Source of the DNA: Eledone cirrhosa
Taxonomy: Eukaryota
NCBI GenBank assembly: GCA_964016885.1
Contig: OZ024743.1
Coordinates: forward strand, 274,970,001 to 275,034,000
Length of the DNA stretch: 64,000 nucleotides
Direction of reading: 5' to 3'
Position numbers and translations under genes: made by a program. Below, piece after piece: positions 1,740-53,365 of the stretch (the first letter of the stretch is position 1; every line of letters begins with the position of its first letter). The notes under the pieces are model-generated. The model saw nothing but the letters and a program-made list of their open reading frames with translations. It was not told the origin of the DNA and made no database searches.

Positions 1740-2147
1740 TAGGTGTGTGCGTCTGTGTTTGACAGAGTGAGAGAGTATATGTGTGTGAGAGAGAGTATAT
1801 GTATGTTTGTGCGTGTTGTGAGTATATGTGTGTTTGACAGTGTGAGAGAGTATGTGTGGGTGAGTATGCGTATGTGAGAGAGAGAGAGAAAAAAAGAAGG
1901 GGAGGGGTGTTGTTTCTGTACACACATACATATTTAATGAAGTGCTTATATATGTAGCTCTGATCTGAAGTTCCCATAATCACAATGTTCTGTGTCAGTT
2001 ACACTGCACACCAACGTAGAAGCCCGGCTATATTAAACAGCTCCTCAGCTTTGACGGTAAACTTCAGTCCGTTGCAAAGTTTATTGCCGCCATTGCCTCT
2101 TGGGTGGACTTGAATCAGTTTTCTAATTCCTTTCTTTATTTTCATGT

Positions 2148-2580
2148 TAGGGTTGGGGTTAGGATTAGAGTTAGGATTAGGGTTTAGGTTTAGGGTTAGG
2201 GTGCGAGTTACGGTTAGGGGTTAGGGATTAGGGTTAGGGTTTAGCGTTAGGGTTAGGGTTACGGATAGGGTTACGGATAGAGTTAGGGTTAGGGTTAGAG
2301 ATAAGTTTAGAGTTAGGGTTAGGGGTTAGGGTTAGAGTCTGTGTTTGAGATAGGGTTATGGTTATGGTGAGGCTTAGGATTACGGTTAGGGTTAGTTTTA
2401 GGGTTTGGTATAGGGTGAAAGTTAGGATTAGGGCTAGAATTAGCGTTAGGGTTAGGGTTTGGATTGGGGTTCGGGTTAGGGTTACGAGTAGAGTAACTTT
2501 TATGCTCAGGGTTAGTGCTGGGGTTAGAGTTACGTGTAGGGTTAAGGTTAGGTTTAACGTTAGGGTTAGAGTTAGGTTTC
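2148..2580 (+). repeat. Degenerate interstitial telomere-like (TTAGGG)n tract
   Basis: About 430 bp of TTAGGG and one-mismatch variants (TTAGGA, TTAGAG, TTACGG). Confidence 0.85.
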
Positions 2581-7861: not shown

Positions 7862-7866
<5 letters not shown>

Positions 7867-10257
7867 GTACAAAAGCCGCTCCAACTTATGCCAACTTAGT
7901 CATGGCATACTTAGAAGTCCAGATATATGAACAGTCCAAATCAAAATACGGATTGAACTTCCACAAATATTTATCAGAGAATTGGAAACGCTACTTGGAT
8001 GAGTGTCTCATTCTTTGGTCCCACACATTCGACCAACTGAAGGATTTCAAAATTTAATAAACGGCATCAATAACCACATCCAATTCACAATAGAATACAG
8101 CCAAGATCAACTCCCATTTCTGGACATCTTAATCTTAAAAAAAGACACAAATATTGAAAATGACATACACTACAAACCAACAGATTCCAAACAATACCTG
8201 CTATTCACCTCCAACCATCCAAAGCACACGAAGACGAACATTCCTTTTAACTTAGCAAGAAGAATTTGCACAATTGTCTCCAATTATAAAACGCGAAATA
8301 GAAGACTTCAAGAATTAAAGGAAATTCTACTCGAAAGATAGTACCCACCATTACTAATAAATAATGGAATAGAAAGGGCTAAAGCAATAGACATTGATGA
8401 ATTACGAAAACAGAAACAAATTCAAGGTACGTCCAATATTCTATCATATATCTCAACACACAACCCAAGAAATACGGAAGCTTACAACACTATTCACAAG
8501 AACATCCCACTACTAAAACAAGACCCAAGAATGAAAAAAGCCCTTGAAACACACAAAATAATCAAAAGCAAAAGACAACCGAAATCACTGAAAACATTAC
8601 TCACCAATGCCAAATTACCTACCACAAACCCACAACCACTTGTCAAAAAATGTGGTCGTTCTAATTGTGGAACCTGCACTCACCTCATTGAAGGCAACAC
8701 GTATACATTTAAATCAGGACAAAATTTTGCTGTAAAAAATCATTCATCAAAAAATCTATTTTATGCCATTAAATGTAAAGAATGCAATGAAGATTATATA
8801 GGACAAACTAAACTCACACTCAGAAACAGAATGACAGTTCATCGCCAACAATTACGAGATCCAACCACGAGACAGATACCACTAAGCGCACATCTACACA
8901 TCTGCGCAAGTAATAAGACACCCAAATTCCAAGTCTTCCCATTTTACCTTTGCGCTGACAATACAACAGAACAAATACGAATAAATAAGGAAAATATGTT
9001 TATTCAAAAATATAGACCAGCATTAAATATGGTTTAATATACATTATGTCAACACCATAACATGCTAACCATCCAAACAGACACATACACACACACACAT
9101 AACACCTGCTATTTTAGAAAATAAAAACCCGAACTAAATAAATCTTAACATACGTTTGCACTGACAATACAACAGAACAAATACGAATAAGTAAGGAAAA
9201 TATGTTCATTCAAAAATGTTCCTACTAACGGAATCATTTTCCTACACACACACACACACACACAATATATATATATATATATATTCTCTTCATCTTAACA
9301 TGCTAACCATACACCCACACACATATAACACCCATACACACACATAACAACCCCCCCCACACACACACACAACTCCCTCCCCCATTTCTACTAATAGAAT
9401 CACTTTCCTACACACATATATACACACACACAAAATATATATATTCTCTCCATCTTAACATACTCCCACACACACACACACACATAACACCCATATACAC
9501 ACACACACAACTCCCTCCTCCATTTCTACTAATAGAATCATCTTCCTATACACACACACACACACAAGCACACAAATAAACATACATATCTTTACTTTCT
9601 TTATTTCAATAGAAAATTTGAATTCTGACACTCCAGCCAACTAACCATATTCACTGAACCAGAACAATTCTCCCATCCCATTTCTCTTGACCATTATCTT
9701 TTGCTTGTCATAAAATTCTCTAAAAAGGCTACAGAATAAATTTCCAAATACGGGCGCGAAAATTTAATGAAAACTTGTTCACGTGACAGCCATAATTTCA
9801 TTTATAACCAATCAAATTACGTTTATTTAAAAAAAGCCTTCGTGAGCCCCCTTTTTTAAGTAAAAAGAAATTCAAACACTCATATATGAAAAAACAACCT
9901 GATCCCCCCCCCCCCCTTGTTTGAAGAACTTTGTAACGCGAACTGGCGCGAAATTTATTATAATTATTGACCAACCAATCAAATTACTTCTCTAAAAACC
10001 TGGCGTTTCGAGCCACTTTTTTCCATATAAAACAAGTAACATTCAAAGACCAACCAGATGTGAGAAAAACCACAGACCCTCCATCTCAACTCTACTTTTG
10101 AAAAGCAGAAGAACTGCGAAACCGGCAAAGGAACCAAATAAATATATATATTTTTTAAATAAGACTCCAGTTACATTTTCGATTTCATCTTTTTTCTTTA
10201 TATTTTCACTCGTGTAGGACACCTCGGTTATTTTTGATTTTGTAAAAAAAACCTAAC

Positions 10258-10263
<6 letters not shown>
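7862..10263 (+). mobile_element. 5'-truncated PLE (Neptune-like): RT C-terminal half, GIY-YIG endonuclease and 3' pLTR
   Basis: MGTKAAPTYANL, WKRYLDE, LPFLDIL, YKPTDSKQYL, SNHP, Cys linker KCGRSNCGTC, YAIKC..YIGQT..R..H; frameshift near 8050 and stop at 8341; (TA)n on both sides. Confidence 0.9.
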
Positions 10264-10314
<51 letters not shown>

Positions 10315-11580: not shown

Positions 11581-14500
11581 ATGATGATGGCTGCCCCTCG
11601 TTATCGAGTATGGCCATTGCACGAGGAGAAAGAAAAAAAAAAAATAATAATAATAATAATAAATAAATAAAAATAAAATTTAAAAAAAAATAAAAAATAA
11701 AAATAAATATATATGTATATACATATACATACATATATACACACACACACACACATACTCACACACACATATACACACACACATACATTAATAACAATAA
11801 TAATAATAATAATAACAACAATAATAATAACGACAACAACAATAATAACATACATATACATATATATATACACACACACGCACACACATAAGCATATCTA
11901 CACACACACACACACACACGATAGCAACTAACAGCGCTGCGATCGAATGTGGCTTTTTAGCCCAGCCAATGATCTAAAATGTCTTGCACAGAGTCGGCAA
12001 CCAAAACATTCACTGGGAATAGTCGGCTGTGGTTGGAGTTCGTGTACTTTTGCAATTCGCTTGAGCCCTCCTGCTGATTTACATTCTCTACCACATGTTT
12101 GGCAAGCATGATGAGTAGCATCTCCAACAGCAGCCTGGTAGTCAACCACTGGTCTTACTTTATGACTGCGAAGATGACTTTCGAGTCCAGCTTTGCTTAG
12201 GCAGAGTCTCGCACATACGCTGCATGTCAGCACCACAGGAGGACCCTCGCCGTCTGGAAGAGCAACAGCAATGCCCTTCCTCACATCCCGCTTTACTTTC
12301 TCGTATGCGATTCGAGATGCTTCAAAGGCAACTTTTCCCTCATATACAGTCTTTCTCCATTTATTACGATCAGCAGCAATATTCTCCCATGTATCAGCAG
12401 AGATGTTAGCGTCTTTCAGAGAGGCTTTCAAGGAATCCTTATACCTCTTTTTTGGTTTATGTGGCGGTCGTTTTCCTTTAACCAACTCTCCAGAAAAGAG
12501 TTGTTTTGGTATTCTAGAATCCTTCATCCTGGCAAGGTGACCACTCCAACGGAGTCGTTGCTTAAGCACAAGAGCTTCTATACTGTCACACATAGAGCTT
12601 TCCAAAATCTCGACATCACTGATGTGGTCCCTCCAGTGAACGCCATGGATCCGTCTGAGACACATCTGATGGAAACGCTCCAATTGCTTAAGGTGGTGTC
12701 GATATGTGACCCAGGTCTCGCAGGCATAAAGAAGACAAGAGAGCACACATGCCCTGTACACCTTTACCTTTGTCCTCCTGCATATGTCTCGCCGACCCCA
12801 GAGTCGCCTTTCTAGCTTTCCGAAAGCATCACTTGCTTTCCTAATCCTAAGTGAGATTTCACTGTCAAGGTTGCTGTAACGATTGACAGTGCTTCCCAGG
12901 TAGACAAACTGATCAACCACTCCAAATCGTTTGCCATACACATAGATGTTTGGTTCAGTGTACTGCTTACCAGGGGCAGGTTGGTACATGACGACGGTTT
13001 TCTTGATACTGACAGTCAGGCCTAGGGCAGTGCAAGCGTCAGAAAATGCATTCAAAATGTGCTGCATATCACTCTCTGTGTGCGCTACAAGATCGCAATC
13101 ATCTGCTTACAAGAGGTCTCTTATGATTGATGTAAATACTTTTGTCTTCGCAGCAAAGCGCCTGATGTTAAATATGCTGCCTGAGGTTCGATATCGGATG
13201 TAAACACCATGCTCGCAATTCCTGAATGCAATACAGAAAACCATTGCAAAGTATATGGCAAACAGGGTCGGTGCTGGAATATCCCCCTGTTTCACTCCAT
13301 TTTTTACTGAGAAAGGCTCCGACATGTTAACCCCGACATTAACCCAAACATTCATGTCGTCATGGAAAGACCTAACTAAAGCAAGGAACTTATCAGGGCA
13401 ACCAAGTTTCTGGAGAACCTTCCATAATGCATCTCTGTTAACAGTATCGAAAGCTTTTGTCAGATCGACAAAACCCTGATACAGATCCAAGCCTTGTTCC
13501 ATGCACTCCTCCTGGAGCTGTCTAGCTGAGAAGATCATATCAGTAGTGCTGCGTCCAGCACGAAAAACAGATTGACTTTTAGGAAGAACACAATCTGCAA
13601 TTTGTGTCAGCAGACGGTCCAGAAGCACCCTACATAAAACTTTCCCTACGACAGAAAGCAATGATATACCTCTGTAGTTCCCACAATCGTTCCTGTTACC
13701 CTTTCCCTTGTACAAAACCACCATTACTGCATCTCTCCAGTCCTCAGGTACGGATTCATTAGCCCATATCCTGCCAAACAAAGAGTGAAGATGTTGCAGG
13801 AGTCTCTCACCACCATATTGTAGGAGCTCAGCGTGTATGCCATCTATACATGGAGATCTTCCACTGTTCAGCTTCGAAATAGCCACTGCAACCTCCACAA
13901 GCGTCGGAGGTTCTGCGAGAGCTACTTTCACAGGACTTTCTGGAATGAGATTGAATAAATCATCACTGACGACAGACGGCTGATTCAAAAGATCATCAAA
14001 GTGCTCTCGCCACCTTCGTAGAATTCCCTGTGAGTCACGAAGCAGTTCTTTGCCATCCTTGCTGCGAAGGGGTGTCACCAGAGAAGAAGACGGTCCATAA
14101 ACCTCACGCAAGAGACTGTACAACAGCTTTGTGTTATTGAAATCAGACGCAGTTTGTATCTCACCAGCCTTCTCACTCCACCACTGATCCTTCATCTGAG
14201 AAAGACTCCACCTAACACGTGATTTTACATCCCTGAGTTCCTCATGCAACGTATTCCTCTCCTGTGGTTTTGCCGTCAAGTAGCGTGACAGAGCACGCCT
14301 CTTATCAGCCAACAAGTCTTCTATATGTACATCATTCTCATCAAACCAGTCCTGATGTTTCCTCTGCGCTAATCCGAGAACACGCCTGCCTACATCATAA
14401 ACCGACTTTTTAAGGGTCGGTCAATCCTCACCAAGATCTGCAGCCTGCATCTCTTCTTCCAATGTCCTCTTCACATTTTTATCCTTAAGACGAGCAGCAT

Positions 14501-15515
14501 TCAATGTTTTGGGCAGGGCAACACCAGGAGCCCGGATTTTACGTTTAGTGATTAGTTTCACTTTTGCGCGTACCAGGCGGTGGTCCGTCCAGCACTCAGC
14601 TCCACGAAGAGCACAAACACACTGCACATCCTGTCTGTCACGCATCCTGAGTAGGATGTAGTCCAAAAGATGCCATTCCTTAGATGCAGGATGCATCCAT
14701 GTGGTCTTGAATTTGTTCTTTTGTTGGAACATGGTGTTGGTAACACACAGATCCAGCTCCTCACGCATCTGCAGCAGGAGCATACCATTGCTGTTACACT
14801 TTCCCACCCCATGCCTTCCGATTACATTCCATGTGTTAAAATCCCTACCTACTCTAGCATTAAAGTCACCAAGCACGATGACTTTGTCTGCCTGAGGGAT
14901 ATTTCTTAAAACACCTTTCAAGGCATGGTAAAAGGACACCTTTTCCTCATCGACAGAACTCATAGTTGGAGCATACACACTCACCAGGGTCGCATATCTT
15001 CCCTTGTCCAGCGGAACTCTCATGGACATAAGACGCTCACTAATCCCTACTGGGAATTCTTCTAATTTGTTCACAAGTACAGTCTTAACAGCAAATCCTA
15101 CCCCAGCCTCTCTTCTGGTTCCTTCATCTCTTCCTTTCCAGAAGAATGTATATTCTCCACAAAATTCCGTAAGATGACCATCTCCAGCTAACCTCGTCTC
15201 AGATAAAGCCACGATGTCAAGATCGTAACGTCGAAGCTCCTTTGCAACAAGAGCGGTCCTTCGTTCAGGACGCCCTAAGGAATCCCTGTCAAGCAGCGTC
15301 CGTACGTTCCAGCAGCCAAGACTAAATGCCCTGTTTGGCTCTATTACAATGGCACGACGACGAGCGGGCCCAGGCTGTGATAACCTGGGGCCCCTGCCTT
15401 TATTGCCAATGATCTTTTTTGTTCCAGAACCTAAATTGCCAATTATCTCTTTTATATTGTTCTGGAACATCATTGAATTGGAAAAAAAAAAAAAAAAAGT
15501 AATAATAATAGTAAA

Positions 15516-15561
<46 letters not shown>

Positions 15562-15818
15562 GTACACTATTAATAATTATTAATGCACTCGTGCAATGCC
15601 TGTGCGTGACGAATATTTTTAAAGTGAGGAAAGACTGTGCACTGAGCCAATCCCACTCTCTGAGCGACAGTAGCTATAACCCGAAAAGAAGAAAAGATCA
15701 ACATCATCGGTAACTACTGAGCCGCAGGTTTTATGTCGGAGTTAACCCAGTTTCCTGAGATGCCTTCTCCTAGAAGAATGCCCTGACAAGGGCTAGGGGT
15801 TCTTCACTCCCAGAGGTT
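11581..15818 (-). mobile_element. Near full-length RTE-clade LINE with 5' UTR and 3' tail
   Basis: APE-RT ORF at 15473-11928; 3' stem-loop ctcg-ataa-cgag then (CAT)n/(ATGT)n near 11581; 5' UTR 15590-15818 is homologous to the 610-bp repeat. Confidence 0.85.
11928..15473 (-). pseudogene. RTE ORF (AP endonuclease, reverse transcriptase, 3 C2H2 zinc fingers) broken by two in-frame stops
   Basis: WNVRTLL, ALSETRL, GDFNARVG, NYRGISLLS, FVDLTKAFD, GVKQG, L*ADD; the three track ORFs share one frame (1182 codons); stops at 14421 and 13107. Confidence 0.92.
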
Positions 15819-38739: not shown

Positions 38740-38740
<1 letters not shown>

Positions 38741-41700
38741 AAAAATTGAACGGGAACAAAGTACGAACAAAGGTTTATTAGTTTCACGGTCTTGAGAGTG
38801 GGGTGGTGGTGGGGAACGACGTTTCGGGCATAAGCACTTCGTCAGGTGAAAAGTGTGTGGGAAGAGAGTTCCAAGGGTGTGTAGGGGAGTGGTGGAGAGA
38901 CATATAGAAAAAAGGGGGTGAGAGGAAACGGTGCAAATGAAATTAAAAATAAAGGCATGATCAAAATAAAATTAAAAATACACATGGGGTGAAACAGGTG
39001 GTGGAAGGGTGTGGGGCGTGTAGGGGTGGTGGCGGGTCGAGTCGCGAGAGGGAGACGGTGTGTCCGAGCGGGGAGGGCTGAAGGTGGTGTGTGTGTAGGT
39101 GTACGTCTGTGTGTGTGTGTGTATGTGAAAGCAAGGGTTGGGGGAACAACGGGGTTGCATGTTCAGGAAGAGGTGTGTGTGGGGTGGGGTGTAGGTCGGA
39201 GTGTGTGTGCGTGTGTGGATAGAGGGGTGGGGGGAGGAGAGGATTCCGGAGGCTGAATATGTAAATATGTGGTGGTACGCACGTGTGTGTGTGGTGTTTA
39301 TGCGTGTTGTGGATGTAGGTGGCGTGTGGGGAAAAAAATTTGTTTGGGGTGTATGTCCGGGGGTGAGTCGTAAAGGTAATTCCGTAAAAGGATGTGGTGG
39401 AATGCTGAGTAAAATCCTTGGGATGCGGTAGATTCTCGGGATCAAGGTTCACATATGTGTAATCCGTGAAGAGATTGGTCGGAAGAGGGGAGTTGTGGGG
39501 TGCGCGCGCAACAGGAAGTGGTCAGAGGGTCAAGGCAGGAGGAGGGTTGTGTGTCTGTGTGTGCGGGGAGGTGGTCAGAGAGGCATAGCAGCAGTAGGGT
39601 AGAATGGTAAGTGAAGAAAGTCGGTGTGTCAGTGTGTGCGGAGGTGCGGTGGGCTGGGGAGAGGATGGGTAGGTGTGAAAGTTGGAGCGATGAGGGAGTG
39701 TGTGTGTATTAGTAGAGGTGTTAGTGGGATGTGTGTGTGTTTGAGAAAGGGTGTGGGTGGAGCGGGGAGAGAAGGGCGTGGGGGCCGATAGAGGGAGTGT
39801 AGTGTACTGGTGATGTGTAGGTGGTAGTAGTAGTAGTGGTATGTGTAGGTGGTAGTAGTAGTATGTCTAGGTGGTAGTAGTAGTATGTGTAGGTGGTAGT
39901 AGTAGTGGTATGTGTAGGTGGTAGTAGTAGTATGTGTAGGTGGTAGTAGTAGTAGTGGTATGTGTAGGTGGTAGTAGTAGTAGTGGTGTTAGTGATGTTA
40001 GTTGCGTGTAGAGTGGGTGGTGTAAGTGGGTGTGTGTGTTCGTGTGCTTAGGGTCAGGGGGTGTTAGTGATGTTAGTTGCGGAGTGGTGGGGTGGATGTG
40101 TGGGGGTGAGGGTTAGTGGTGGTAGTAGGGTGTGTGTTTAGTGTGAGCGCGTGTATATATGTACCGGTGGGTGTGTGCGTGTGATAAGGAGGGAGGAGGA
40201 GAAGAAGGGAGGGATGTTAGTATGTTAGTTGGGGAAGGGTAGTCAGATGTGGGGTGGAGGTGCTAGTATTGTTAGTTGTGGGGTGGGCGGTCAAAAGGAG
40301 GGGTGTGTTAGTGGTGTTAGTGGGGATATGTGTGGGGGGAGGGGGCGGTCGAAGGCTAAAGGAATAAGGGTGGGGAGTTCAGGCCGGGGGGAGTGTGGGT
40401 CTGTAGGGTGAAGATGGTTCGTTGTTCGACCCTGAGGAAAGTGGCGGGTGTTCCGTGGCATTGGAGTAGGCCACAGACTGTGAGGTGGTGTGCGGAATGT
40501 CCAGGGGCACCAAAGTGGCGGGCGATGGGGGAACTACCACTGAGACGAATATCCCGGAGGTGTTCAGTAAACCTGTCCGCCAGGCGACGTCCAGTCTGTC
40601 CGACGTAAGTCGCGTAGTCCGTAGACTAGGTTGGAGGAGGTGCAGCGGAAGGCATGCCGGACAGAGAGAGAGTGGCCGTTTGGACCCTGGAAGGTGGTGG
40701 TGTTGGTGATGTGGGGACAGGTGTTGCAGCGGGGCCTAGAACAGGGAAAGGAACCGGGGGAAAAGAGAGCGTGGGTTGAGGGTAGGGAGCTGTGGACGAG
40801 GAGGGTGCGGAGATTGCGTGCGCGTTTGAAGGAGGGGAGGGGTGGGGCTGGGAAGATGTGGGAGGTGGAGGGGTCGGACTGGAGGCGTCGGAAGAGGCGG
40901 AGGATGGTGCAGTAGAGGCTTATGATGGAGGGGTGGTAGGTGATGGGGAATGAGAGATGGTGGGTGGGTGTGCGGTGGCGTGGGGTGAGGGTGGTGGAGC
41001 GGTGGACAGCACGGGCGCGGGTGAGAGCGGTGTAGACGAGAGAGGGGGTAACCTCTGTGGATGAAATGGCTGACTAGGGAAAGGGCCTGGGACTCAAAGT
41101 CAGCATCTCGGCTACAGAGGCGGCGGATCCTGAGGAGTTGGGAGTAGGGAATAGAGTGTTTAGTGTGTGTGGGGTGGGAAGAGGTGAAGTCGAGGTAGGA
41201 GTGGGAGTCGGTGGGTTTGAAGAAGGCGGAGGTGACGAGGGAGTGGTGGGAGGGGTCGAAGGCGACGGAGATGTCTAAGAAGTGGACGTGGGTGGTGGAG
41301 ATAGAGGTGGTGAAGTGGAGGGAGGGGTGGAAGAAGCAGAAGAAGGAGAGAAAGGAGTCGAGCTGTTCTCGGGCGAGGGTCGTGGCTCCGATACAGTCGT
41401 TGATGTAACGACCGTACAGTTCGGGCGTGGGGCCGGTGTACTGGGCATCAACATGGCCAACAAAAAGGTTGGCATAGTTTGGGCCCATTCTTGTACCCAT
41501 GGCTACCACCGTGACCTGTTGGTAAAACTCACCCGAGAAGGAGAAACATTTGAGTGTGAGGACCAGCTCGGCGAGGCGAAGGAGGGTGGGGTGGAGGGCA
41601 TGGGGGAGGGGCGAAGGTCGAGGTAGTGTTTGAGGGCGCGTAGGCCGTCGGCGTTGGGGATGACGGTATAGAGGGACTTGATGTCTAGGGTGAAGAGGAA

Positions 41701-43530
41701 GGGCTGTGGGCTGGGTGAGTAGGTGAAGGAGTCGAAAAGGCGCAGGGCGTGGTTGGTGTCGGAGATGTAGGAGGGGAGGGTGGTGACAAGGGGGGCGAGG
41801 ATGGAGTCGAGAAAGGCGGAGATGAGTTGCAAGCGGAGACGATGGGGCGGCCGGGGTTGTCGGGTTTGTGGAGTTTGGGGAGGAAGTAGATGGTGGGGTG
41901 CGGGGGATGCGGACGATGAGGTGGGAAGAGGTGGGGGGAGGGAGGAGAGGACAAGGTGTTGGATGGTGGAGTAAACAAGGTGTTGGATGGTGGAGGAAAC
42001 TTGTTGTTGGTAGAGGGGTGTGGGATCGGATGGTAGAGGGCGGTAGAAGAAGGGGTTACGGAGCTGCCTGAGGGCTTCGGCCGTGTAGAGGTCCGCGCGC
42101 CGCACCACCACGGCGCCTCCCTTGTCCGCCGGTTTGATGACGATGTCATCTCGGATACGGAGGGAGCGGAGAGCGAGGAGTTCGCCCCGTGTGATGTTAT
42201 TCCGTTTGGAACGGTGGCGGAAGTCGAAACGATTTACGGCGCTACGGCTGGCATCGACGAACGCGTCCAGGGTGCTAAATTGCCCTGGGGCCGGCGTCCA
42301 AGAAGATGGTTGTCGGCCCAGGGCGAGAAACGGGTCTGGGGCGTTCGGAGCCGGTGGCGTTCGGCCGAAATGTGCCTGTAGCTACGTGCGTCGCACGAAT
42401 CGCTCGACTTCCGTTCGAGTGCGGAACTCGTCGCTGTGTGGAGTGTGGGGTATGAAGCGAAGGCCTCTACTAAGGAGTGAGCGCTCAGGTGCGGAGAGGG
42501 GGAGGTCAGGGGGTATGGTGACAACAAGTTGTGGGGTTTGGGTGTGTGAGGGGGAAGGGGGTAGAGATTGGGTAGGGGTGTGGATCGAGGGAGGGGTGGA
42601 GAGTGGTGGGGATGGGTGTGGGGGGCTCATAGGGATGGGCGGGTGGTGGTGGATGGGTGTGGTTGGGAAGAGTGAGTGTAGCTTACGGGCTTTGGTGGAG
42701 GTGAGGAAGGAGAAGAGGTCGTGGTTGAGGTTTTGGATGAAGAGGAGGATGGCGTGGGCGAGGAGGGGGTGGCAGGTGGAGTTAAGGCGGAGGAGGGTGG
42801 TGGTCAGTTGGTGGTCAAGTTTGCGGAGGGTGGAGCGGGAGGCGCGGATGGAGTTGCGCATTAGGAGGCGTGAGGATCGGGTGAGGATACGTTGGGTGGA
42901 GGGGGAAGCGGGGGGGAGTGGAAGTGTAGACGGAAGCCGAGGGGGATAAGGTGGAGGCGGAGGCAGTGGCTGAGGAAATGGATGTGGCTGGAGTGCCGGG
43001 TTTTGGCGAAGAGAAGGTAGGAGAGTTGAAGGGCAGAGGGGAGATAGCAGGGTGGGAGGAGGGGGGTGAGGAAAAGTTTGAGGCTAGTGTGTAGTTAGTG
43101 GAGCAAGGATCTCAGGCTGGGCATGGTGGGCGTTGGGTGAAAGCAGGGGGAGGAATGAGAGAGCAGGTGTGTGAAGCGGGGTGGTGTTGAACGAAGGAGT
43201 GAATGCGAAGGATAGGCAAAGACGGGGAAGGGAAAATGAAACAGAAAAAACGTAAGGAGGGGAGAGTATACACAGGAAAATCATAGACAAAAAATCATAA
43301 ACGTAAAAACACAGGCAATCGTGGACAAAAAATCATAGAAAGAAATAAAATCGTAAAAACACAGGCAATCATGTACAAAAAATCATAGACAGAAATAAAC
43401 AAGTACAGTAAATAAATCAAACAAAGGTAATGCAAAGAAAGGAAAAAACAAGTGTGGGAAGGTGTGTGGAAAGTTCAGAGAGTGGTCACGGCGGATTAGA
43501 TCGGGGTTCAGCCGGTAGTCAAGGTATATT
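38740..43530 (-). mobile_element. Near full-length PLE (Neptune-like), frameshifted, with 3' pLTR and HHR at 38816-38848
   Basis: LSRGLRFIP, IYFLPKLHK..GRPIVS, TLDIKSLYTVIP, MGTRMGPNYANL, RYINDC, KPTDSHSYL, CSRPRCNTC, YVGQTGRRLADRFTEH; CTGACGA agtgc-ttat-gccc GAAA cg TC; flanked by (TA)n. Confidence 0.9.
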
Positions 43531-43552
43531 CCAATATATATATATATATATA

Positions 43553-44584
43553 TATGGATGTATATATAATGTATTTTGCAATACACTTTATGCTTAATTA
43601 AAAGCATTTTGAAGACCGTAAGCTATTGTTTTAAAGTAGTGACAAATTCACTCACTTTGATCTCAGCAAACAGGGGAGATAAGCCGACAAGACTTGTTTC
43701 GCTTTGGTTGAAGCTTATCAAGGCCAACTACCCCACCTGTCTGCTGAGATCATTGATGTTATATTCTTATAGAAATCTAGTAAATAATCAGGAGCTGATT
43801 ATGCAGAGCGGTTGTTGGTCAGGCAGAAATTAAAAATTAGAATTGGAGCTCTGAAATAGCAATATATATATGGATGTATATATAATGGATTTTGCAATAC
43901 ACTTTATGCGTAATTAAAAGCATTTTGAAGACCGTAAGCTATTGTTTTAAAGTAGTGACAAATTCACTCATTTTGATCTCAGCATAATCAGCTCCTGATT
44001 ATTTACTAGATTTCTATAAGAATATAACATCAATGATCTCAGCAGACAGGTGGGGTAGTTGGCCTTGATAAGCTTCAACCAAAGCGAAACAAGTCTTGTC
44101 GGCTTATCTCCCCTGTTTGCTGGGATCAAAGTGAGTGAATTTGTCACTACTTTAAAACAATAGCTTACGGTCTTCAAAATGCTTTTAATTAAGCATAAAG
44201 TGTATTGCAAAATCCATTATATATACATCCATATATATATTGCTATTTCAGAGCTCCAATTCTAATTTTTAATTTCTGCCTGGCCAACAACCGCTCTGCA
44301 TAATCAGCTCCTGATGATTTACTAGATTTCTATAAGAATATAACATCAATGATCTCAGCAGACAGGTGAGGTAGTTGGCCTTGATAAGCTTCAACCAAAG
44401 CGAAACAAGTCTTGTCGGCTTATCTCCCCTGTTTGCTGAGATCAAAGTGAGTGAATTTGTCACTACTTTAAAACAATAGCTTACGGTCTTCAAAATGCTT
44501 TTAATTAAGCATAAAGTGTATTGCAAAATACATTATATATACATCCATATATATATTGCTATTTCAGAGCTCCAATTCTAATTT
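43553..44584. mobile_element. 316-bp HHR-containing tandem unit (retrozyme-like), head-to-head 1.3 + 1.9 copies
   Basis: Period 316 (43556/43872; 44061/44377); strand switch at ~43982; flanked by (TA)n. Confidence 0.85.
44061..44104 (+). ncRNA. Type I hammerhead, U3-A8 variant (also 44377-44420 on +, 43682-43725 on -)
   Basis: ggcc TTGATAA gctt-caacca-aagc GAAA caagtcttg TC ggct. Confidence 0.85.
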
Positions 44585-44608
44585 TTATATATATATATAT
44601 ATATGTAT

Positions 44609-44677
<69 letters not shown>

Positions 44678-44681
<4 letters not shown>

Positions 44682-45097
44682 AACAAAAGATGGTTAAAAG
44701 AGTTCCAAGTATTTTATTATGCGCATTTCAAAAACAAATATCATCATACAATAATATTTGTGTTTTCATCAGATAAAACAGGAAGACATGATATGAAGGT
44801 TAAAAAACACTTGTGGATAGTGCAGTTTTAAATCAACATATCATATGTTGATTTAAAACTGCACTATCCACAAGTGTATTTTAACCTTCATATCATGTCT
44901 TCCTGTTTTATCTGATGAAAACACAAATATTATTGCATGATGATATTTGTTTTTGAAATACGCATAATAAAATACATGGAATTCTTTTAACCATCTTTTG
45001 TTCTTATATATTATATATACTCCAGTCCTACAAACTGTAGAGTGCTTCTTATCCGATATCTGCATTGCTTTATGGTACTACAATAAAACTCACCTCC

Positions 45098-45100: not shown

Positions 45101-45161
<61 letters not shown>

Positions 45162-45164
<3 letters not shown>

Positions 45165-45893
45165 AAGGCATGTATTGAGTTAGAAACTCAAAATAGTGTC
45201 ATTACAGTAAATTAGCTCAGGAAAGAGATTTTTCCGAGCCGTATATTATAACTGAACAAAAAAAAAAAAACGAATATAGACATATACATATATGTGTTCA
45301 AATCGTAATGGACCAGAATCGCTAAGGTGAAAAAAATACTTACAGACAATAGGGTTTGCCAGACTCAATTTAAGAATAAATCAAGAAAAATAAATACAAA
45401 CCATAATTGTGGTAACAACCGAACACCCGGACAGTTTTGATAGAACTGTTTCGCAATATTATTTGTGAAAAGGAGTACCAAAGTCCTAAGCTCATCAGCG
45501 GGTGAAGAAATTAGTATCCTGATCACTTCTAAATCTAATAAAAAAAACTGGATGGTGTGTCTATATGTAACGCACATGGTTCCCGAACTTAGAGTGTCTC
45601 GCACACTCACGCCACTAAAAATAACAGCCGAGTTTACTTTACATTTGAATTAGCTTGACGAATTAACGGAGCCGAATATATCAAAGGCATGTATTGAGTT
45701 AGAAACTCAAAATAGTCTCATTACAGTAAATTAGCTCTAGGAAAGAGGTTTTTCCGAGCCGTATAGTATAACTGAACAAAAAAAAAAGAAAAACTAACAC
45801 AGAGTGTACAAATACATCGATTCTGGTCCATTACGATTTGAACAAATATGTGTATGTGTCTCTGTTCGTTTTTCTGTTTTTTTTGTTCAGTTA

Positions 45894-45900
<7 letters not shown>
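45162..45900 (-). mobile_element. 519-bp circularly permuted HHR unit with inverted terminal arm
   Basis: Direct repeat at 45162/45681; 45818-45900 mirrors 45240-45322; flanked by (TA)n. Confidence 0.75.
45425..45503 (-). ncRNA. Type I hammerhead ribozyme with canonical core
   Basis: acccg CTGATGA gc..gc GAAA cagtt-ctatcaa-aactg TC cgggt. Confidence 0.85.
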
Positions 45901-45926
<26 letters not shown>

Positions 45927-45929
<3 letters not shown>

Positions 45930-46454
45930 AGTTTATGTTGGTTGTATACCACCACCTCAGTATGCAGGTTGGAGCACTCGACGAAGTGCGCAGGTTGGTT
46001 TGGTTACTCCGGAGTAGTGTAAAATAAAGTTAAATAAAAGTCAAATGATTAAAATTTAGCTTCGTTTATTACTGCTATATATATTTCAGTGACAGCCATC
46101 TTTGGCTGTGACCTCTTCAGGCAGTTTGAATTAGTATGGTATAGACAAGTACATATGTTGTTTAGGTGTATGATATTGTCAATACTCTGATATGCCCAGT
46201 TCCTTGTTGGGTTGTTAATTCACTGGGGAACTGGAGTCATATGACTCCAGTTCCCCAGTGAATTAACAACCCAACAAGGAACTGGGCATATCAGAGTATT
46301 GACAATATCATACACCTAAACAACATATGTACTTGTCTATACCATACTAATTCAAACTGCCTGAAGAGGTCACAGCCAAAGATGGCTGTCACTGAAATAT
46401 ATATAGCAGTAATAAACGAAGCTAAATTTTAATCATTTGACTTTTATTTAACTT

Positions 46455-46460
<6 letters not shown>
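45927..46460. mobile_element. Apparently perfect ~440-bp palindrome (pLTR fold-back) with HHR at 46357-46409
   Basis: 46021-46240 mirrors 46241-46460 with no loop; ctgc CTGAAGA ggtcacagcca-aaga-tggctgtcact GAAA tatata tagcag. Confidence 0.85.
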
Positions 46461-46518
<58 letters not shown>

Positions 46519-46522
<4 letters not shown>

Positions 46523-46870
46523 CTGTCACTACTCCAAAACAATAGCGTAAGGTCTTCGAAATGCTTTTAATTAAGCATACAGTGTATTGCAAAATACACT
46601 ATATATACATTCATATATATATCGCTATTTCAGAGCGCCAATTCTAATTTTCAATTTCTTCTTGATCGGCAACCGATCTGTATAATCAGTTCCTGATTAT
46701 TACTAGAATTCTATAAGAATCAAACATTCATGATTTTCAGCAAACAGGATTTGATAAGCACCAAAAAGTGCGAAACAGAGCTCTGTCAGCTTTATCTCCC
46801 CTGTTTGCTGAAAATTAAAGTAAGTGAGACTGTCACTACTCTAAAACAATAGCGTAAGGTCTTCGAAATT
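46519..46870 (+). mobile_element. 307-bp circularly permuted unit, diverged relative of the 316-bp family; HHR at 46748-46790
   Basis: Terminal direct repeat at 46519/46826; TTGATAA gcac-caaaaa-gtgc GAAA cagagctctg TC agc. Confidence 0.8.
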
Positions 46871-46899
46871 CTAATATATATATATATATATATATACAT

Positions 46900-47092
46900 A
46901 TAGGAAAATGTTCAAGACTCCGACGACAGAGCTCGAGCCGGTTCGACGGCTATGTCTCAGAAATAGCCGTCGAAACGACTCGAGCTCTGCCGTCGCGGTC
47001 TTGAACATTTTCTTATTACCCACTCTACTACCCTAAGTATTGAGTACTCTGGTGCGTTATGGTCCACCTGGTTCCTTATCACACTTCTTTCG

Positions 47093-47095
<3 letters not shown>
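46900..47095. mobile_element. Short fold-back of a Naiad-like pLTR 3' end
   Basis: 46901-46955 mirrors 46962-47014; homologous to 50643-50700 and 53240-53365. Confidence 0.75.
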
Positions 47096-47164: not shown

Positions 47165-47590
47165 TTCAAAATATTAATAAATGGATACAATCACATAATC
47201 AAAATATATATTTTATTATATATATTTAGGAGGTACTGTGCTGTTTTTTCAGTACGTCCTCATCAGATAAAATAATAAATTGATGCATGACATACCTCAA
47301 CAGTGCTGATGGTTCAATTCCAGTCTTGGCAGTGGAATTGAACCATCAGCACAGTTGAGGTATGTCATGCATCAATTTATGTATTTTATCTGATGAGGAC
47401 GTACTGAAAAAACAGCACAGTACTTCCTAAATATATATAATAAAATATATATTTTTATTATGTGATTGTATCCATTTATTAATATTTTGAATAATATTAA
47501 TAAGTCCAGAAAATGTAACTGTTGAGTGCTTTTAATCTATTGTAAAACTGTATTCATTGAATAATCAATGAACCTTGTTTAACATTTGGT
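47163..47590. mobile_element. Head-to-head pLTR fold-back with decayed HHR (47390)
   Basis: 47163-47322 mirrors 47333-47492; GAAA is changed to TAAA in both arms. Confidence 0.8.
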
Positions 47591-50643: not shown

Positions 50644-53365
50644 GGAGAAAGTATGACCCCGACGGCTGAGCTCAAGCCGTTTCGACGGCTATTTCTGGAC
50701 TAAAGTAAGAGTTTTTTTAGTCTGGTAAATAAATAGCAGAATTTTTCAAGGGGTACTTCCTTATATGGGAAGATTGTAGTTGTCAAGAGGATTGGTCAAA
50801 ATTTGTAGCAGACACAGAAAAGTCTATCATGGCAGTGGGTGGGGGTGGGGTGGCTGAACTTGCCTGTAGAACGATAGGGGAGTGGGTAGAGCCGGTCAAG
50901 CGTAGAAGTTGAAATCTACACGGCATATTCTAAGAAATGTGTAAGAAAGTAGGCCAGAGGAGGTTGGCGAAAAAATGTTTCTATAAAAAATGGAAGATGG
51001 ACGTTATAGAAATAGTAAATCAAATAAGATTAGGGGACAATGAAAAAATATAATTAAAAAGAATATAATAAAAAATGAGAGAAAGATGTATCAGAATGTA
51101 AGATTGGAAAGTGAGAAGTGAATTAAAACAAAAACTAAAGAGTCATTAGTGGGTGCTGCTTTTTCGGCCAAAGCTATGGAATGAGTTGCTAGATGAGTAT
51201 TATTGAAAATTTAGGATTAAAAATTAATACCACATCTCTGGGATCTAACACAGCTGCTATGAATAATTAGTATAGCGTAATCGGCGAATGCTATCTGTAA
51301 GGTACTGGGGTGGGGGTACTGAGGTTAGAGGGGCCCGATGGGCTGCCTCGGAGTAGGCGAAAGGGGGAAAAAACAAAGAAACGAACGAGGAAGAAGTTCG
51401 GTGGTGGAAAGGAGTGATAGGAGGAGACAAAGGGAAGAAGAAAACATAGAGGTAAAGAAAAGAGGTACATCTACCTATAAAAGTTGGGGTTTACCCTATC
51501 TTATTCGGCAAGTGGGGTGTTTCAGTCCTTGTCTACCCACCCAGATAGTTAGGGGGTTTGAGGGCGAGGTAAGTCTTCCGCAATCTGTGTTTGTATGCGG
51601 TTAGCAGTTCGTCTTTTTTGTTTAGGGGTTGATCCTTCGTAAACACATTTGTAATGGTTCCTCCGAGCATAAGTTACACGGACGGCGTCCACCCGTGTAA
51701 GAGTTAGCTCTGGACAGTAAGCTCCAAGTAAGATGGTAAGTTATATTATTATCTTGGAGGTCCCAGATATGGCCCGAAAGTGAGGTGGCATGTCGCCGGA
51801 CCGGGTTTCGGAACGTATGTCGGTGTTGGTAGAGCCGGGTCTTAAAGTCACAAGCGGTTAATCCTATATAAGCTTTGTTGGAGGTGTCCGTCCTTACGTT
51901 GACTGGTAGATCACGTTCCGTGCTCGGCATCTGTTGTTGAGGGGGAACGTAAATCTATCAGGGCAGTTACACCTCCTGGTCGGTTCTCCACTAATTTCTA
52001 GGTTGTTTCTTCCATAGGGGTTGAGTTTTTTGTTGTTTGAGGAGACGATGTTTTGTGCGAAGTTATGTGTGGTACTGTAGGATAGCTTGATAGTGTTTTT
52101 GTTGATTATGTTGTGGTAGCGGTGTTGTGGTGGAAAATGTTTTTCGAGGAGCCTAAAGAAGATTTTCCCGATAGGTGTTGCCACCTCGGCATTGTGGGGA
52201 GGATTGAACCACGTTACGTGGCGTGGGCGGCGGCGTCGCCTGCTGGTTCCGCTAAGGGAAGCTGGATAAAAGGATATTTCCTCCCGGAAGCCACTCCGCT
52301 TGAGGGCCTGGTTGTAATGAGGCGCATGTTCGTCGAATATCTGCTCATTAGCGGACAAACGAGATATTCGGAGGGAGATGTTTTTACCCAGATTATTGGT
52401 GATGTTTCTAGGATTGTTAGAGCGGCGGTGGATGTAGTGCAGGTTGTCGTTTGGTTTCCTGTATGGGTAGTACAGATCATTTTCGAGGTTGAGGGTAATG
52501 TCCAGGAAATTGACTCGGGTTAGGGATGTTTGTAGGGTGATTTTAAATCCCCAACTACTGGGGTTGTACCCTTTGAGGGTAAGGAGCTCATCGTCTCGGT
52601 ACAATCCACCGCCGAATGCGGGAAGCATTTCGGTGAGTTTAAATAGTAGGAATAATCCTATAAGATCGGTGACCTCGGCCGAATCGGTCGCGTCCATGCT
52701 GACGTCGAAGGGGGAGTCGGGAGCTCTCTTTATCCACTTGGAGTTGTCGAAAAGTAGGACTGTCTTCCTGGCGTGGAGAATGATATTTCTTTCCTGGTCG
52801 GTGATGGGCACGAGTGTTTCGACAAAGTCCAAGGCGGCCGTAAGGAGCGGTAAGGTAAGAGATGCATAGTAACTCTCTATGTGAAACCGGATGAATTTTG
52901 TGTCCCGTTTGTCCTCAATATTCCTGAACCATGAGATTACTTCCTGGGTGCTAACCCATAGGCTAAGTCACGCGTTTTGCTTAACTTTTGGTATAACGCG
53001 GTCTAGAATGTTTTTACTGATTCTCCCTATGTCCGACTTCGTCGGGTTTATAAGCCTGATGGATGGTTTGCGGTCGAAGTCAGATTTGTGGTCCTTCAGT
53101 GTGAAGTAGGGAGCCCGTGGGTCGAAGGGTTCAGTGCGGTCTGCGACCCCGAGCCTAGAAGTAATTTGTTGTCCCTCTAGATTTATGTCCTCGATCGGCT
53201 ATTTATTTACCAGACTAAAAAAAAACTCTTATTTTAGTCCAGAAATAGCCGTCGAGAGGGCTTGAGCTCTGCTGTCGGGGTCATACTTTCTCCTATTACC
53301 CACTCTACTACCCTAAGTATTGAGTAATCTGGTGCGTTATAATCCATCTGGTTCCTTACCACTAC
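50643..53365 (-). mobile_element. 5'-truncated PLE (Naiad-like) RT and GIY-YIG, with 3' pLTR and inverted 5' pLTR arm (53197-53365)
   Basis: FDVSMDATDSAE, GLYRDD, VNFLDITL, PYRKPN, TWFNPP, CNC, YIGLT..FKTR, CNLCSEE; HHR at 50657-50753(-) cccc TTGAAAA..GAAA cggcttgagctcagccg TC gggg. Confidence 0.9.

What the first reader, a model, noticed from the sequence alone, without database searches (positions are those of the whole stretch)
43553..44584. 316-bp hammerhead unit repeated in tandem on both arms of a head-to-head insertion
Seen: ~1.3 units with the HHR on minus are joined at ~43982 (shared GCA) to ~1.9 units with the HHR on plus. All three ribozymes are intact and carry the UUGAUAA core. 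Both arms exceed one unit length and start at different points of the unit. Inference: both arms were copied from a circular or multimeric RNA, in the size range of known metazoan retrozymes.
Basis: partly seen in the sequence, partly recalled or inferred. Interest (0 to 1): 0.75.

Follow-up and report, generated by a model that had tools for sequence, protein, structure and literature searches.

The report
Hammerhead retrozyme primed twice by Penelope
This is one copy of a many-copy, protein-less 316-base repeat with a self-cutting 'hammerhead' RNA motif that sits in TA microsatellites as two back-to-back arms, likely written in by a Penelope-type retrotransposon enzyme that would start twice on one continuous, possibly circular, RNA; the kind is known, but the copies give a rare test of how that enzyme works.

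Summary
Observation confirmed: a 1.39-unit minus arm (43546-43984) and a 1.92-unit plus arm (43982-44587) share GCA and carry three intact type I hammerheads with a U3-A8 core, between (TA)n runs. It is a young dispersed family (319 exact core matches), an animal non-LTR retrozyme. Across 120 loci, 5' ends are scattered but 3' ends are fixed at two sites 26-33 nt apart; 61 of 64 head-to-head joints pair one short with one tailed end; none is tail-to-tail. That is the published Penelope-like (PLE) signature, also seen in an intact PLE family here. The two arms share a marker haplotype in 27 of 31 loci (6 by chance), are often not nested (13 of 43), and run through the cleavage site, so both were likely copied from one continuous RNA. 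Circle versus uncleaved multimer is open: unit-specific variants shared in register by both arms, one at this locus, favour a multimer or later conversion. The neighbouring PLE is a nested neighbour. No RNA data; cleavage untested; driver not identified. This scan noted the same architecture before on other DNA.

The parts
43534..43545 (.). (TA)n target, left
   Evidence: sequence
43546..43984 (-). Left arm, 1.39 units, unit positions 134 to 256; 'short' 3' end at 43546
43665..43735 (-). Type I hammerhead of the left arm (U3 at 43721, C17 at 43686)
43982..43984 (.). 5'-to-5' junction, 3-nt microhomology GCA
43982..44587 (+). Right arm, 1.92 units, unit positions 314 to 287; tailed 3' end at 44587
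44051..44121 (+). Type I hammerhead 1 of the right arm (U3 44065, predicted cut after 44100)
44101..44416 (+). 316-nt monomer that two cuts would release (predicted)
44367..44437 (+). Type I hammerhead 2 of the right arm (U3 44381, predicted cut after 44416)
44557..44587 (+). One-sided 31-nt 'tail' (unit 257-287), absent from the left arm's end
44588..44679 (.). (TA)n target, right

Best explanation
This is one insertion of a non-coding, many-copy 316-base hammerhead repeat (an animal retrozyme) into a TA microsatellite, likely made by a Penelope-like retrotransposon enzyme that would cut both DNA strands and prime twice on one continuous RNA, probably a circle. Shown: the anatomy, the copy number, the two fixed 3' sites, the one-short-one-tailed rule, haplotype sharing between arms, passage through the cleavage site, and compensatory changes in the hammerhead stems. 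Inferred: tandem copies are transcribed and cut at the hammerheads (perhaps as a double hammerhead, since stem III is near-palindromic), the monomer is closed to a circle, each cut DNA end primes cDNA at one of two internal sites (unit 256 and 282-289, 140-173 nt past the cut site), each reverse transcriptase stops at a random point, and the two cDNA ends are joined by short microhomology. Odds: PLE-driven twin priming on one continuous RNA about 0.85; that this RNA is circular about 0.6 of that.
For: Family: 319 exact matches of the 43-nt core, 2,500 of a 32-nt 3' motif shared with sister subfamilies, controls 0. 3' ends at 254-258 or 280-293 in 179 of 200 arms from 120 loci; 5' ends uniform over the unit (chi-square p 0.11); 78 head-to-head joints, 0 tail-to-tail. 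156 of 181 canonical ends run into TA. One short plus one tailed end in 61 of 64 joints with two canonical ends, never short+short, p 5e-15. The intact 775-aa PLE family of this genome shows the same rule with a tail of about 60 nt in 4 of 4 head-to-head insertions read. Arms share the haplotype at four marker sites in 27 of 31 loci, permutation mean 6.2, maximum 16 in 100,000; 44 of 48 multi-unit arms are uniform. 238 + 70 passages through the cleavage site, none of the 238 checked with a deletion there; 5' ends at 113-121: 7 seen, 5.7 expected. Stems: 98.9% of cells paired, 4 pairs with changes on both sides in all three helices, 22 hand-picked variants. Literature: two internal start sites and two-strand cleavage for a PLE in vitro (PMC11167929); circles from animal retrozymes (PMC7229834).
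Against: Against the circle: unit-specific variants are shared by both arms at the same distance from the 3' end in 16 of 127 comparisons against 4 of 319 off register (8 versus 2 pairs, p 7e-4), one of them at this locus (unit 230 in the second unit of both arms); private variants present in all copies of a locus are only 2 in 12,518 positions, both 2-of-2 within one arm. Long arrays show unit duplication at the DNA level (L034, L035, L068), so length alone proves no rolling circle. A few 5' ends fall exactly at the cut site (L090, L205; 5 seen against 2.0 expected in the sample not chosen by the ribozyme, p 0.055). In vitro the PLE used unprocessed RNA. An inactive fold is about 6 kcal/mol more stable than the hammerhead fold, tertiary contacts not counted. 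In an older subfamily 2 of 9 canonical joints are tail+tail. No driver was identified: no similarity beyond TA runs was seen to two abundant PLE families (the listing was cut). Cleavage and transcription are untested.
Confidence: 0.5

Rival explanations
1. Same PLE twin priming, but the template is an uncleaved or partly cleaved linear multimer transcribed from a genomic array; arrays regain length and uniformity by DNA-level unit duplication.
For: In-register unit-specific variants in both arms: 5 strict cases in 7,696 sites against 0.2 expected, including this locus; DNA-level duplications in long arrays; some 5' ends at the cut site; unprocessed RNA was the main PLE substrate in vitro (PMC11167929); inactive fold favoured.
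Against: No pile-up of 5' ends at any phase, which transcripts with defined 5' ends from typical short sources would give; several haplotypes each uniform over up to 8 units in both arms; the four loci with the marker of the 26-unit array share only one of its unit-specific variants, a C-to-T at unit 116; conversion between inverted arms also explains in-register sharing.
Confidence: 0.33
2. The unit is only the terminal repeat (pLTR) stub of an autonomous PLE not yet found, with tandems made by DNA slippage; no independent small-RNA cycle.
For: A broken PLE lies directly next to this copy; PLE end stubs with hammerheads form similar palindromes in the window; Xenopus retrozymes resemble pLTRs (bioRxiv 10.64898/2026.07.22.740005).
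Against: 36 of 139 loci have a PLE hit in the flank, 13 within 500 bp, and in none of these 13 does the unit follow a frame's end on the same strand; 0 of 11 other copies of the neighbouring PLE end have the unit. Upstream of the 3' ends the unit continues into itself. Only 139 of several hundred or thousand loci were read.
Confidence: 0.06
3. Linear self-cleaved monomers are the template and the reverse transcriptase jumps precisely from 5' end to 3' end.
For: Explains uniform units; a few ends at the cut site.
Against: No deletion at 238 passages and no significant excess of stops there; insertions at the joint were not separately counted.
Confidence: 0.06
4. The second arm is a fold-back (self-primed) copy of the first arm, as proposed for Penelope palindromes (PMC3846280).
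For: Would explain haplotype sharing; junction overlaps of 1 nt or more in 32 of 50 joints.
Against: In 13 of 43 short+tail loci neither arm is contained in the other, as many as independent lengths give (14 seen, 14.5 permuted); in-register sharing reaches loci where the tailed arm passes the other's end.
Confidence: 0.04

Closest known systems
Animal non-LTR retrozymes (Cervera and de la Pena 2020, PMC7229834; Li, Clavereau and Pollet 2026, bioRxiv 10.64898/2026.07.22.740005)
   Same: Non-coding tandem unit in the 150-450 bp range, low GC, canonical type I hammerhead in each unit, dispersed monomers to multimers, co-occurring PLEs.
   Different: U3-A8 core; head-to-head arms, fixed 3' sites and one-sided tail are not described for retrozymes in the parts I read (parts 2-4 of 6 and 1-3 of 5; supplements not readable). 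Expression, cleavage and circles untested here.
EN+ Penelope-like elements (Craig et al. 2021, PMC8557442; Arkhipova et al. 2013, PMC3846280; Frangieh et al. 2024, PMC11167929)
   Same: 5'-truncated partial tandems, inverted 5'-truncated copy, 30-40 bp tail at one end, AT-rich or (TA)n targets, two internal start sites.
   Different: No reading frame; a full hammerhead with long stem I rather than a minimal one; start sites here have TA microhomology to the target, whereas the anole element started at a site not homologous to the target.
Schistosoma PLE hammerheads with U3-A8 core (Cervera and de la Pena 2014, PMC4209133)
   Same: Same core covariation; opposite-strand hammerhead pairs 100-700 bp apart were noted there.
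   Different: Those are minimal motifs, mostly single; activity of U3-A8 was not given in the passages I read.

Membership tests
Animal non-LTR retrozyme | Short tandem unit of about 150-450 bp | tested here: met
   316 bp; 319 bp in an older subfamily
Animal non-LTR retrozyme | Type I hammerhead in at least two consecutive units | tested here: met
   covariation; core is the U3-A8 variant
Animal non-LTR retrozyme | No coding capacity, not tied to an ORF | tested here: met
   no frame of 150 aa or more over the element
Animal non-LTR retrozyme | Many dispersed copies | tested here: met
Animal non-LTR retrozyme | Self-cleavage of the transcript | not testable with these tools
   fold prediction only
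Animal non-LTR retrozyme | Expression as linear and circular monomers | not testable with these tools
   needs RNA of this animal
PLE-mobilised insertion | 5'-truncated partial tandem with inverted 5'-truncated copy | tested here: met
   78 head-to-head, 0 tail-to-tail joints
PLE-mobilised insertion | 30-40 bp tail at one end | tested here: met
   26-33 nt; 61 of 64 joints
PLE-mobilised insertion | AT-rich or microsatellite target | tested here: met
   156 of 181 ends
PLE-mobilised insertion | Terminal sequence shared with an autonomous PLE | tested here: inconclusive
   only a shared last heptamer with the 775-aa family's tail; three families looked at out of many
Autonomous PLE | RT plus GIY-YIG reading frame | tested here: not met

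The most novel reading that the evidence does not exclude
The copies record the missing step of the Penelope cycle: a dimeric enzyme loads both ends of a double-strand cut onto ONE retrozyme RNA circle at two sites about 30 nt apart, and two reverse transcriptases chase each other round it. That would explain tandem, inversion and one-sided tail in one stroke and be genomic evidence for rolling-circle reverse transcription of an animal ribozyme circle.
Probability: 0.4. Interest if true: 0.7.

Novelty: new member of a known kind. Interest (0 to 1): 0.42.

Why it matters
How PLEs make their tandem, inverted and tailed insertions is called undefined in PMC8557442, and PLE mobilisation of retrozymes is proposed but not shown. 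A small, young, marked family gives constraints: one short and one tailed end per event, both arms from one template, independent arm lengths, no stop at the ribozyme site. A 316-nt unit with intact PLE frames in the same genome is a handy substrate for an in vitro test of circle against linear multimer. The element class itself is known.

Tried and rejected
RNA: no RNA holder listed (6 runs of unknown kind, all contigs); laying 4 of the 6 showed only presence of the family; no evidence either way. Pfam found GIY-YIG in 1 of 7 PLE-like frames and nothing in the four frames next to the element; their PLE identity rests on RT and zinc-finger motifs that I recall, plus weak tblastn cross-hits. 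Driver search: 775-aa and 784-aa families and the neighbouring family's end gave no shared terminal sequence. Genome-wide motif counts (811, 565, 2,500) were meant to test stopping at the cut site but are confounded by subfamilies; dropped in favour of reading 40 loci. The register test was faulty (38 'shared' rows include artefacts) and was redone. The fold constraint was mis-indexed and redone. An apparent pile-up at the cut site in the older subfamily shrank to 4 against 1.8 expected with its own reference. One junction pair recurs (L017, L064) but on different haplotypes with an 11-nt overlap, so likely recurrent. Assembly artefact rejected: arms differ in sequence and ends, and the pattern recurs at 76 of 120 loci. 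Target-site duplication cannot be read in (TA)n. PMC3088659 passages gave nothing on U3-A8.

Full report
Anatomy. The window is from a 3.0-Gb genome rich in simple repeats. The element lies between two (TA)n runs. With window 43985 as unit position 1, the left arm reads on minus from 134 through one turn to 256 (1.39 units) and the right arm on plus from 314 to 287 (1.92 units); they share GCA. Each of three cores reads as a type I hammerhead: 4-bp stem I continued past a bulge into a helix of about 25 bp, U3-U-G-A-U-A8-A, 4-bp stem II with a 6-nt loop, GAA, 4-pair stem III with a 3-nt loop, cut after GUC. Across 22 variants that I picked one or two per sequence type from 57 distinct ones plus one window copy, all three helices show changes on both sides; relatedness inflates such counts. 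Stem III is palindromic or nearly so in all five types checked and pairs better with a second copy than with itself, which fits dimer cleavage as described in PMC4209133 (passages). U3-A8 is reported there for Schistosoma PLE motifs, and similar cores occur in both abundant PLE families of this genome (read by eye).

Samples. Set 1: 80 loci, 131 arms: the 40 places scored by the DNA search and 40 further loci from the head of the exact-core list; five duplicate loci, one continuation, arms under 60 nt and four stray arms were dropped. It is biased to long, ribozyme-bearing copies. Set 2: 40 loci, 69 arms, the first not yet fetched in the list of a 3' motif; it includes sister subfamilies of 85-99% identity. 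Set 3: 19 loci of an older 319-bp subfamily. Mean divergence from the majority in set 1 is 1.2%.

Ends. 3' ends fall at 254-258 (84 arms) or 280-293 (95 arms) of 200; 5' ends are uniform; 78 joints are head-to-head and none tail-to-tail. Where both ends are canonical, 43 of 45 joints in set 1 and 18 of 19 in set 2 pair a short with a tailed end; the three exceptions are tail+tail with one end against non-TA sequence. Set 3 has 7 of 9, with two true tail+tail cases. PLE papers describe this shape: an inverted 5'-truncated copy and a 30-40 bp tail often at one end only (PMC8557442, passages; PMC3846280, passages), and two internal start sites with cleavage and extension of both strands in vitro (PMC11167929, parts 1-2 of 4). 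The intact 775-aa family here follows the same rule.

One template. At four marker sites the arms agree in 27 of 31 loci against 6.2 by permutation, and 44 of 48 multi-unit arms are uniform. In 13 of 43 loci neither arm fits inside the other, as expected for independent lengths, which rules out simple fold-back. Both arms thus likely come from one RNA, or from transcripts of one source, or were homogenised later; I cannot separate these fully.

Circle or multimer. For a continuous template: 238 passages of the cut site in set 1 (26 from one long array) without a deletion and 70 in set 2; stops near the site 7 against 5.7 expected; 31 of 66 canonical arms in set 2 exceed one unit. For the circle: uniform haplotypes, no favoured 5' phase, a conserved ribozyme, and circles shown for coral, mussel and axolotl retrozymes (PMC7229834, parts 2-4 of 6). 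Against it: unit-specific variants shared in register (16 of 127 against 4 of 319), including this locus; almost no private variant fixed in all copies (2 of 12,518); DNA-level duplication in long arrays; a few ends exactly at the cut site. Conversion between inverted arms could give the in-register signal. I put the circle slightly ahead.

Neighbour. A frameshifted PLE occupies about 38740-43533 on minus. Its 11 other copies read lack the unit, and most begin with their own terminal repeat; over 139 loci no unit follows a frame's end among the 13 within 500 bp. The adjacency is nesting in TA. The driver is unknown.

Known and new. Retrozymes as non-autonomous PLE derivatives are in print (bioRxiv 10.64898/2026.07.22.740005, parts 1-3 of 5). 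My searches (listings only unless named) showed no paper with retrozyme insertion-end statistics or arm-haplotype tests; the library lacks most subscription papers, and the supplements of PMC7229834 and of the preprint could not be read and may list such families or an insertion model. Earlier notes of this scan report the same architecture for other units here and in other genomes; none matched this sequence. They call the animal an octopus; I did not test that. Verdict: real, a new member of a known kind, with useful mechanistic constraints.

Noticed in passing
window 46520-46875 (+): Copy of an older 319-bp subfamily of the same unit (about 82% alike) with compensatory stem changes, a perfectly palindromic stem III and a deletion in the 5' side of stem I.
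   Followed up: yes
window 44673-45011, 46020-46461, 47165-47500, 46884-47093: Further head-to-head palindromes between TA runs, with minimal hammerhead motifs (for the first two) and one-sided extensions of about 85-100 nt; likely end stubs of PLE families; the last resembles the end of the 784-aa family.
   Followed up: partly
window 7865-10264 (+); L142-L151: Very abundant PLE family (17,625 first-look candidates, many open 775-aa frames) with two hammerhead-like motifs in its terminal region and a tail of about 60 nt ending in the same seven letters as the retrozyme tail.
   Followed up: partly
window 51894-52967 (-); L164-L178: Second abundant PLE family (61,436 candidates, open 784-aa frames), probably Hydra-like by recalled motifs, in tandems of up to four 3.53-kb units; hammerhead with a U3-A8 core.
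   Followed up: partly
window about 38740-43533 (-): Frameshifted C-rich PLE with a minimal hammerhead near its 3' end; in several copies other elements have inserted at about the same spot of its terminal repeat.
   Followed up: partly
L034 (G000:C1:293635236-293643479): 26-unit array of the same unit with a recent 6-unit duplication: a retrozyme turning into satellite DNA.
   Followed up: partly
unit positions 125-136, all loci: Excess of 5' ends (16 against 8 expected, p 0.008, window chosen after looking) in the G+C-rich part of the long stem: possible pause site.
   Followed up: no
window 11928-15566 (-): Broken LINE with endonuclease and RT frames, RTE-like by recall.
   Followed up: no
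window 45157-45925: Another repeat with 519-bp direct and inverted parts between TA runs; not identified.
   Followed up: no
window 2146-2576: Degenerate (GTTAGG)n run of about 71 copies, telomere-like, far from the contig end.
   Followed up: no
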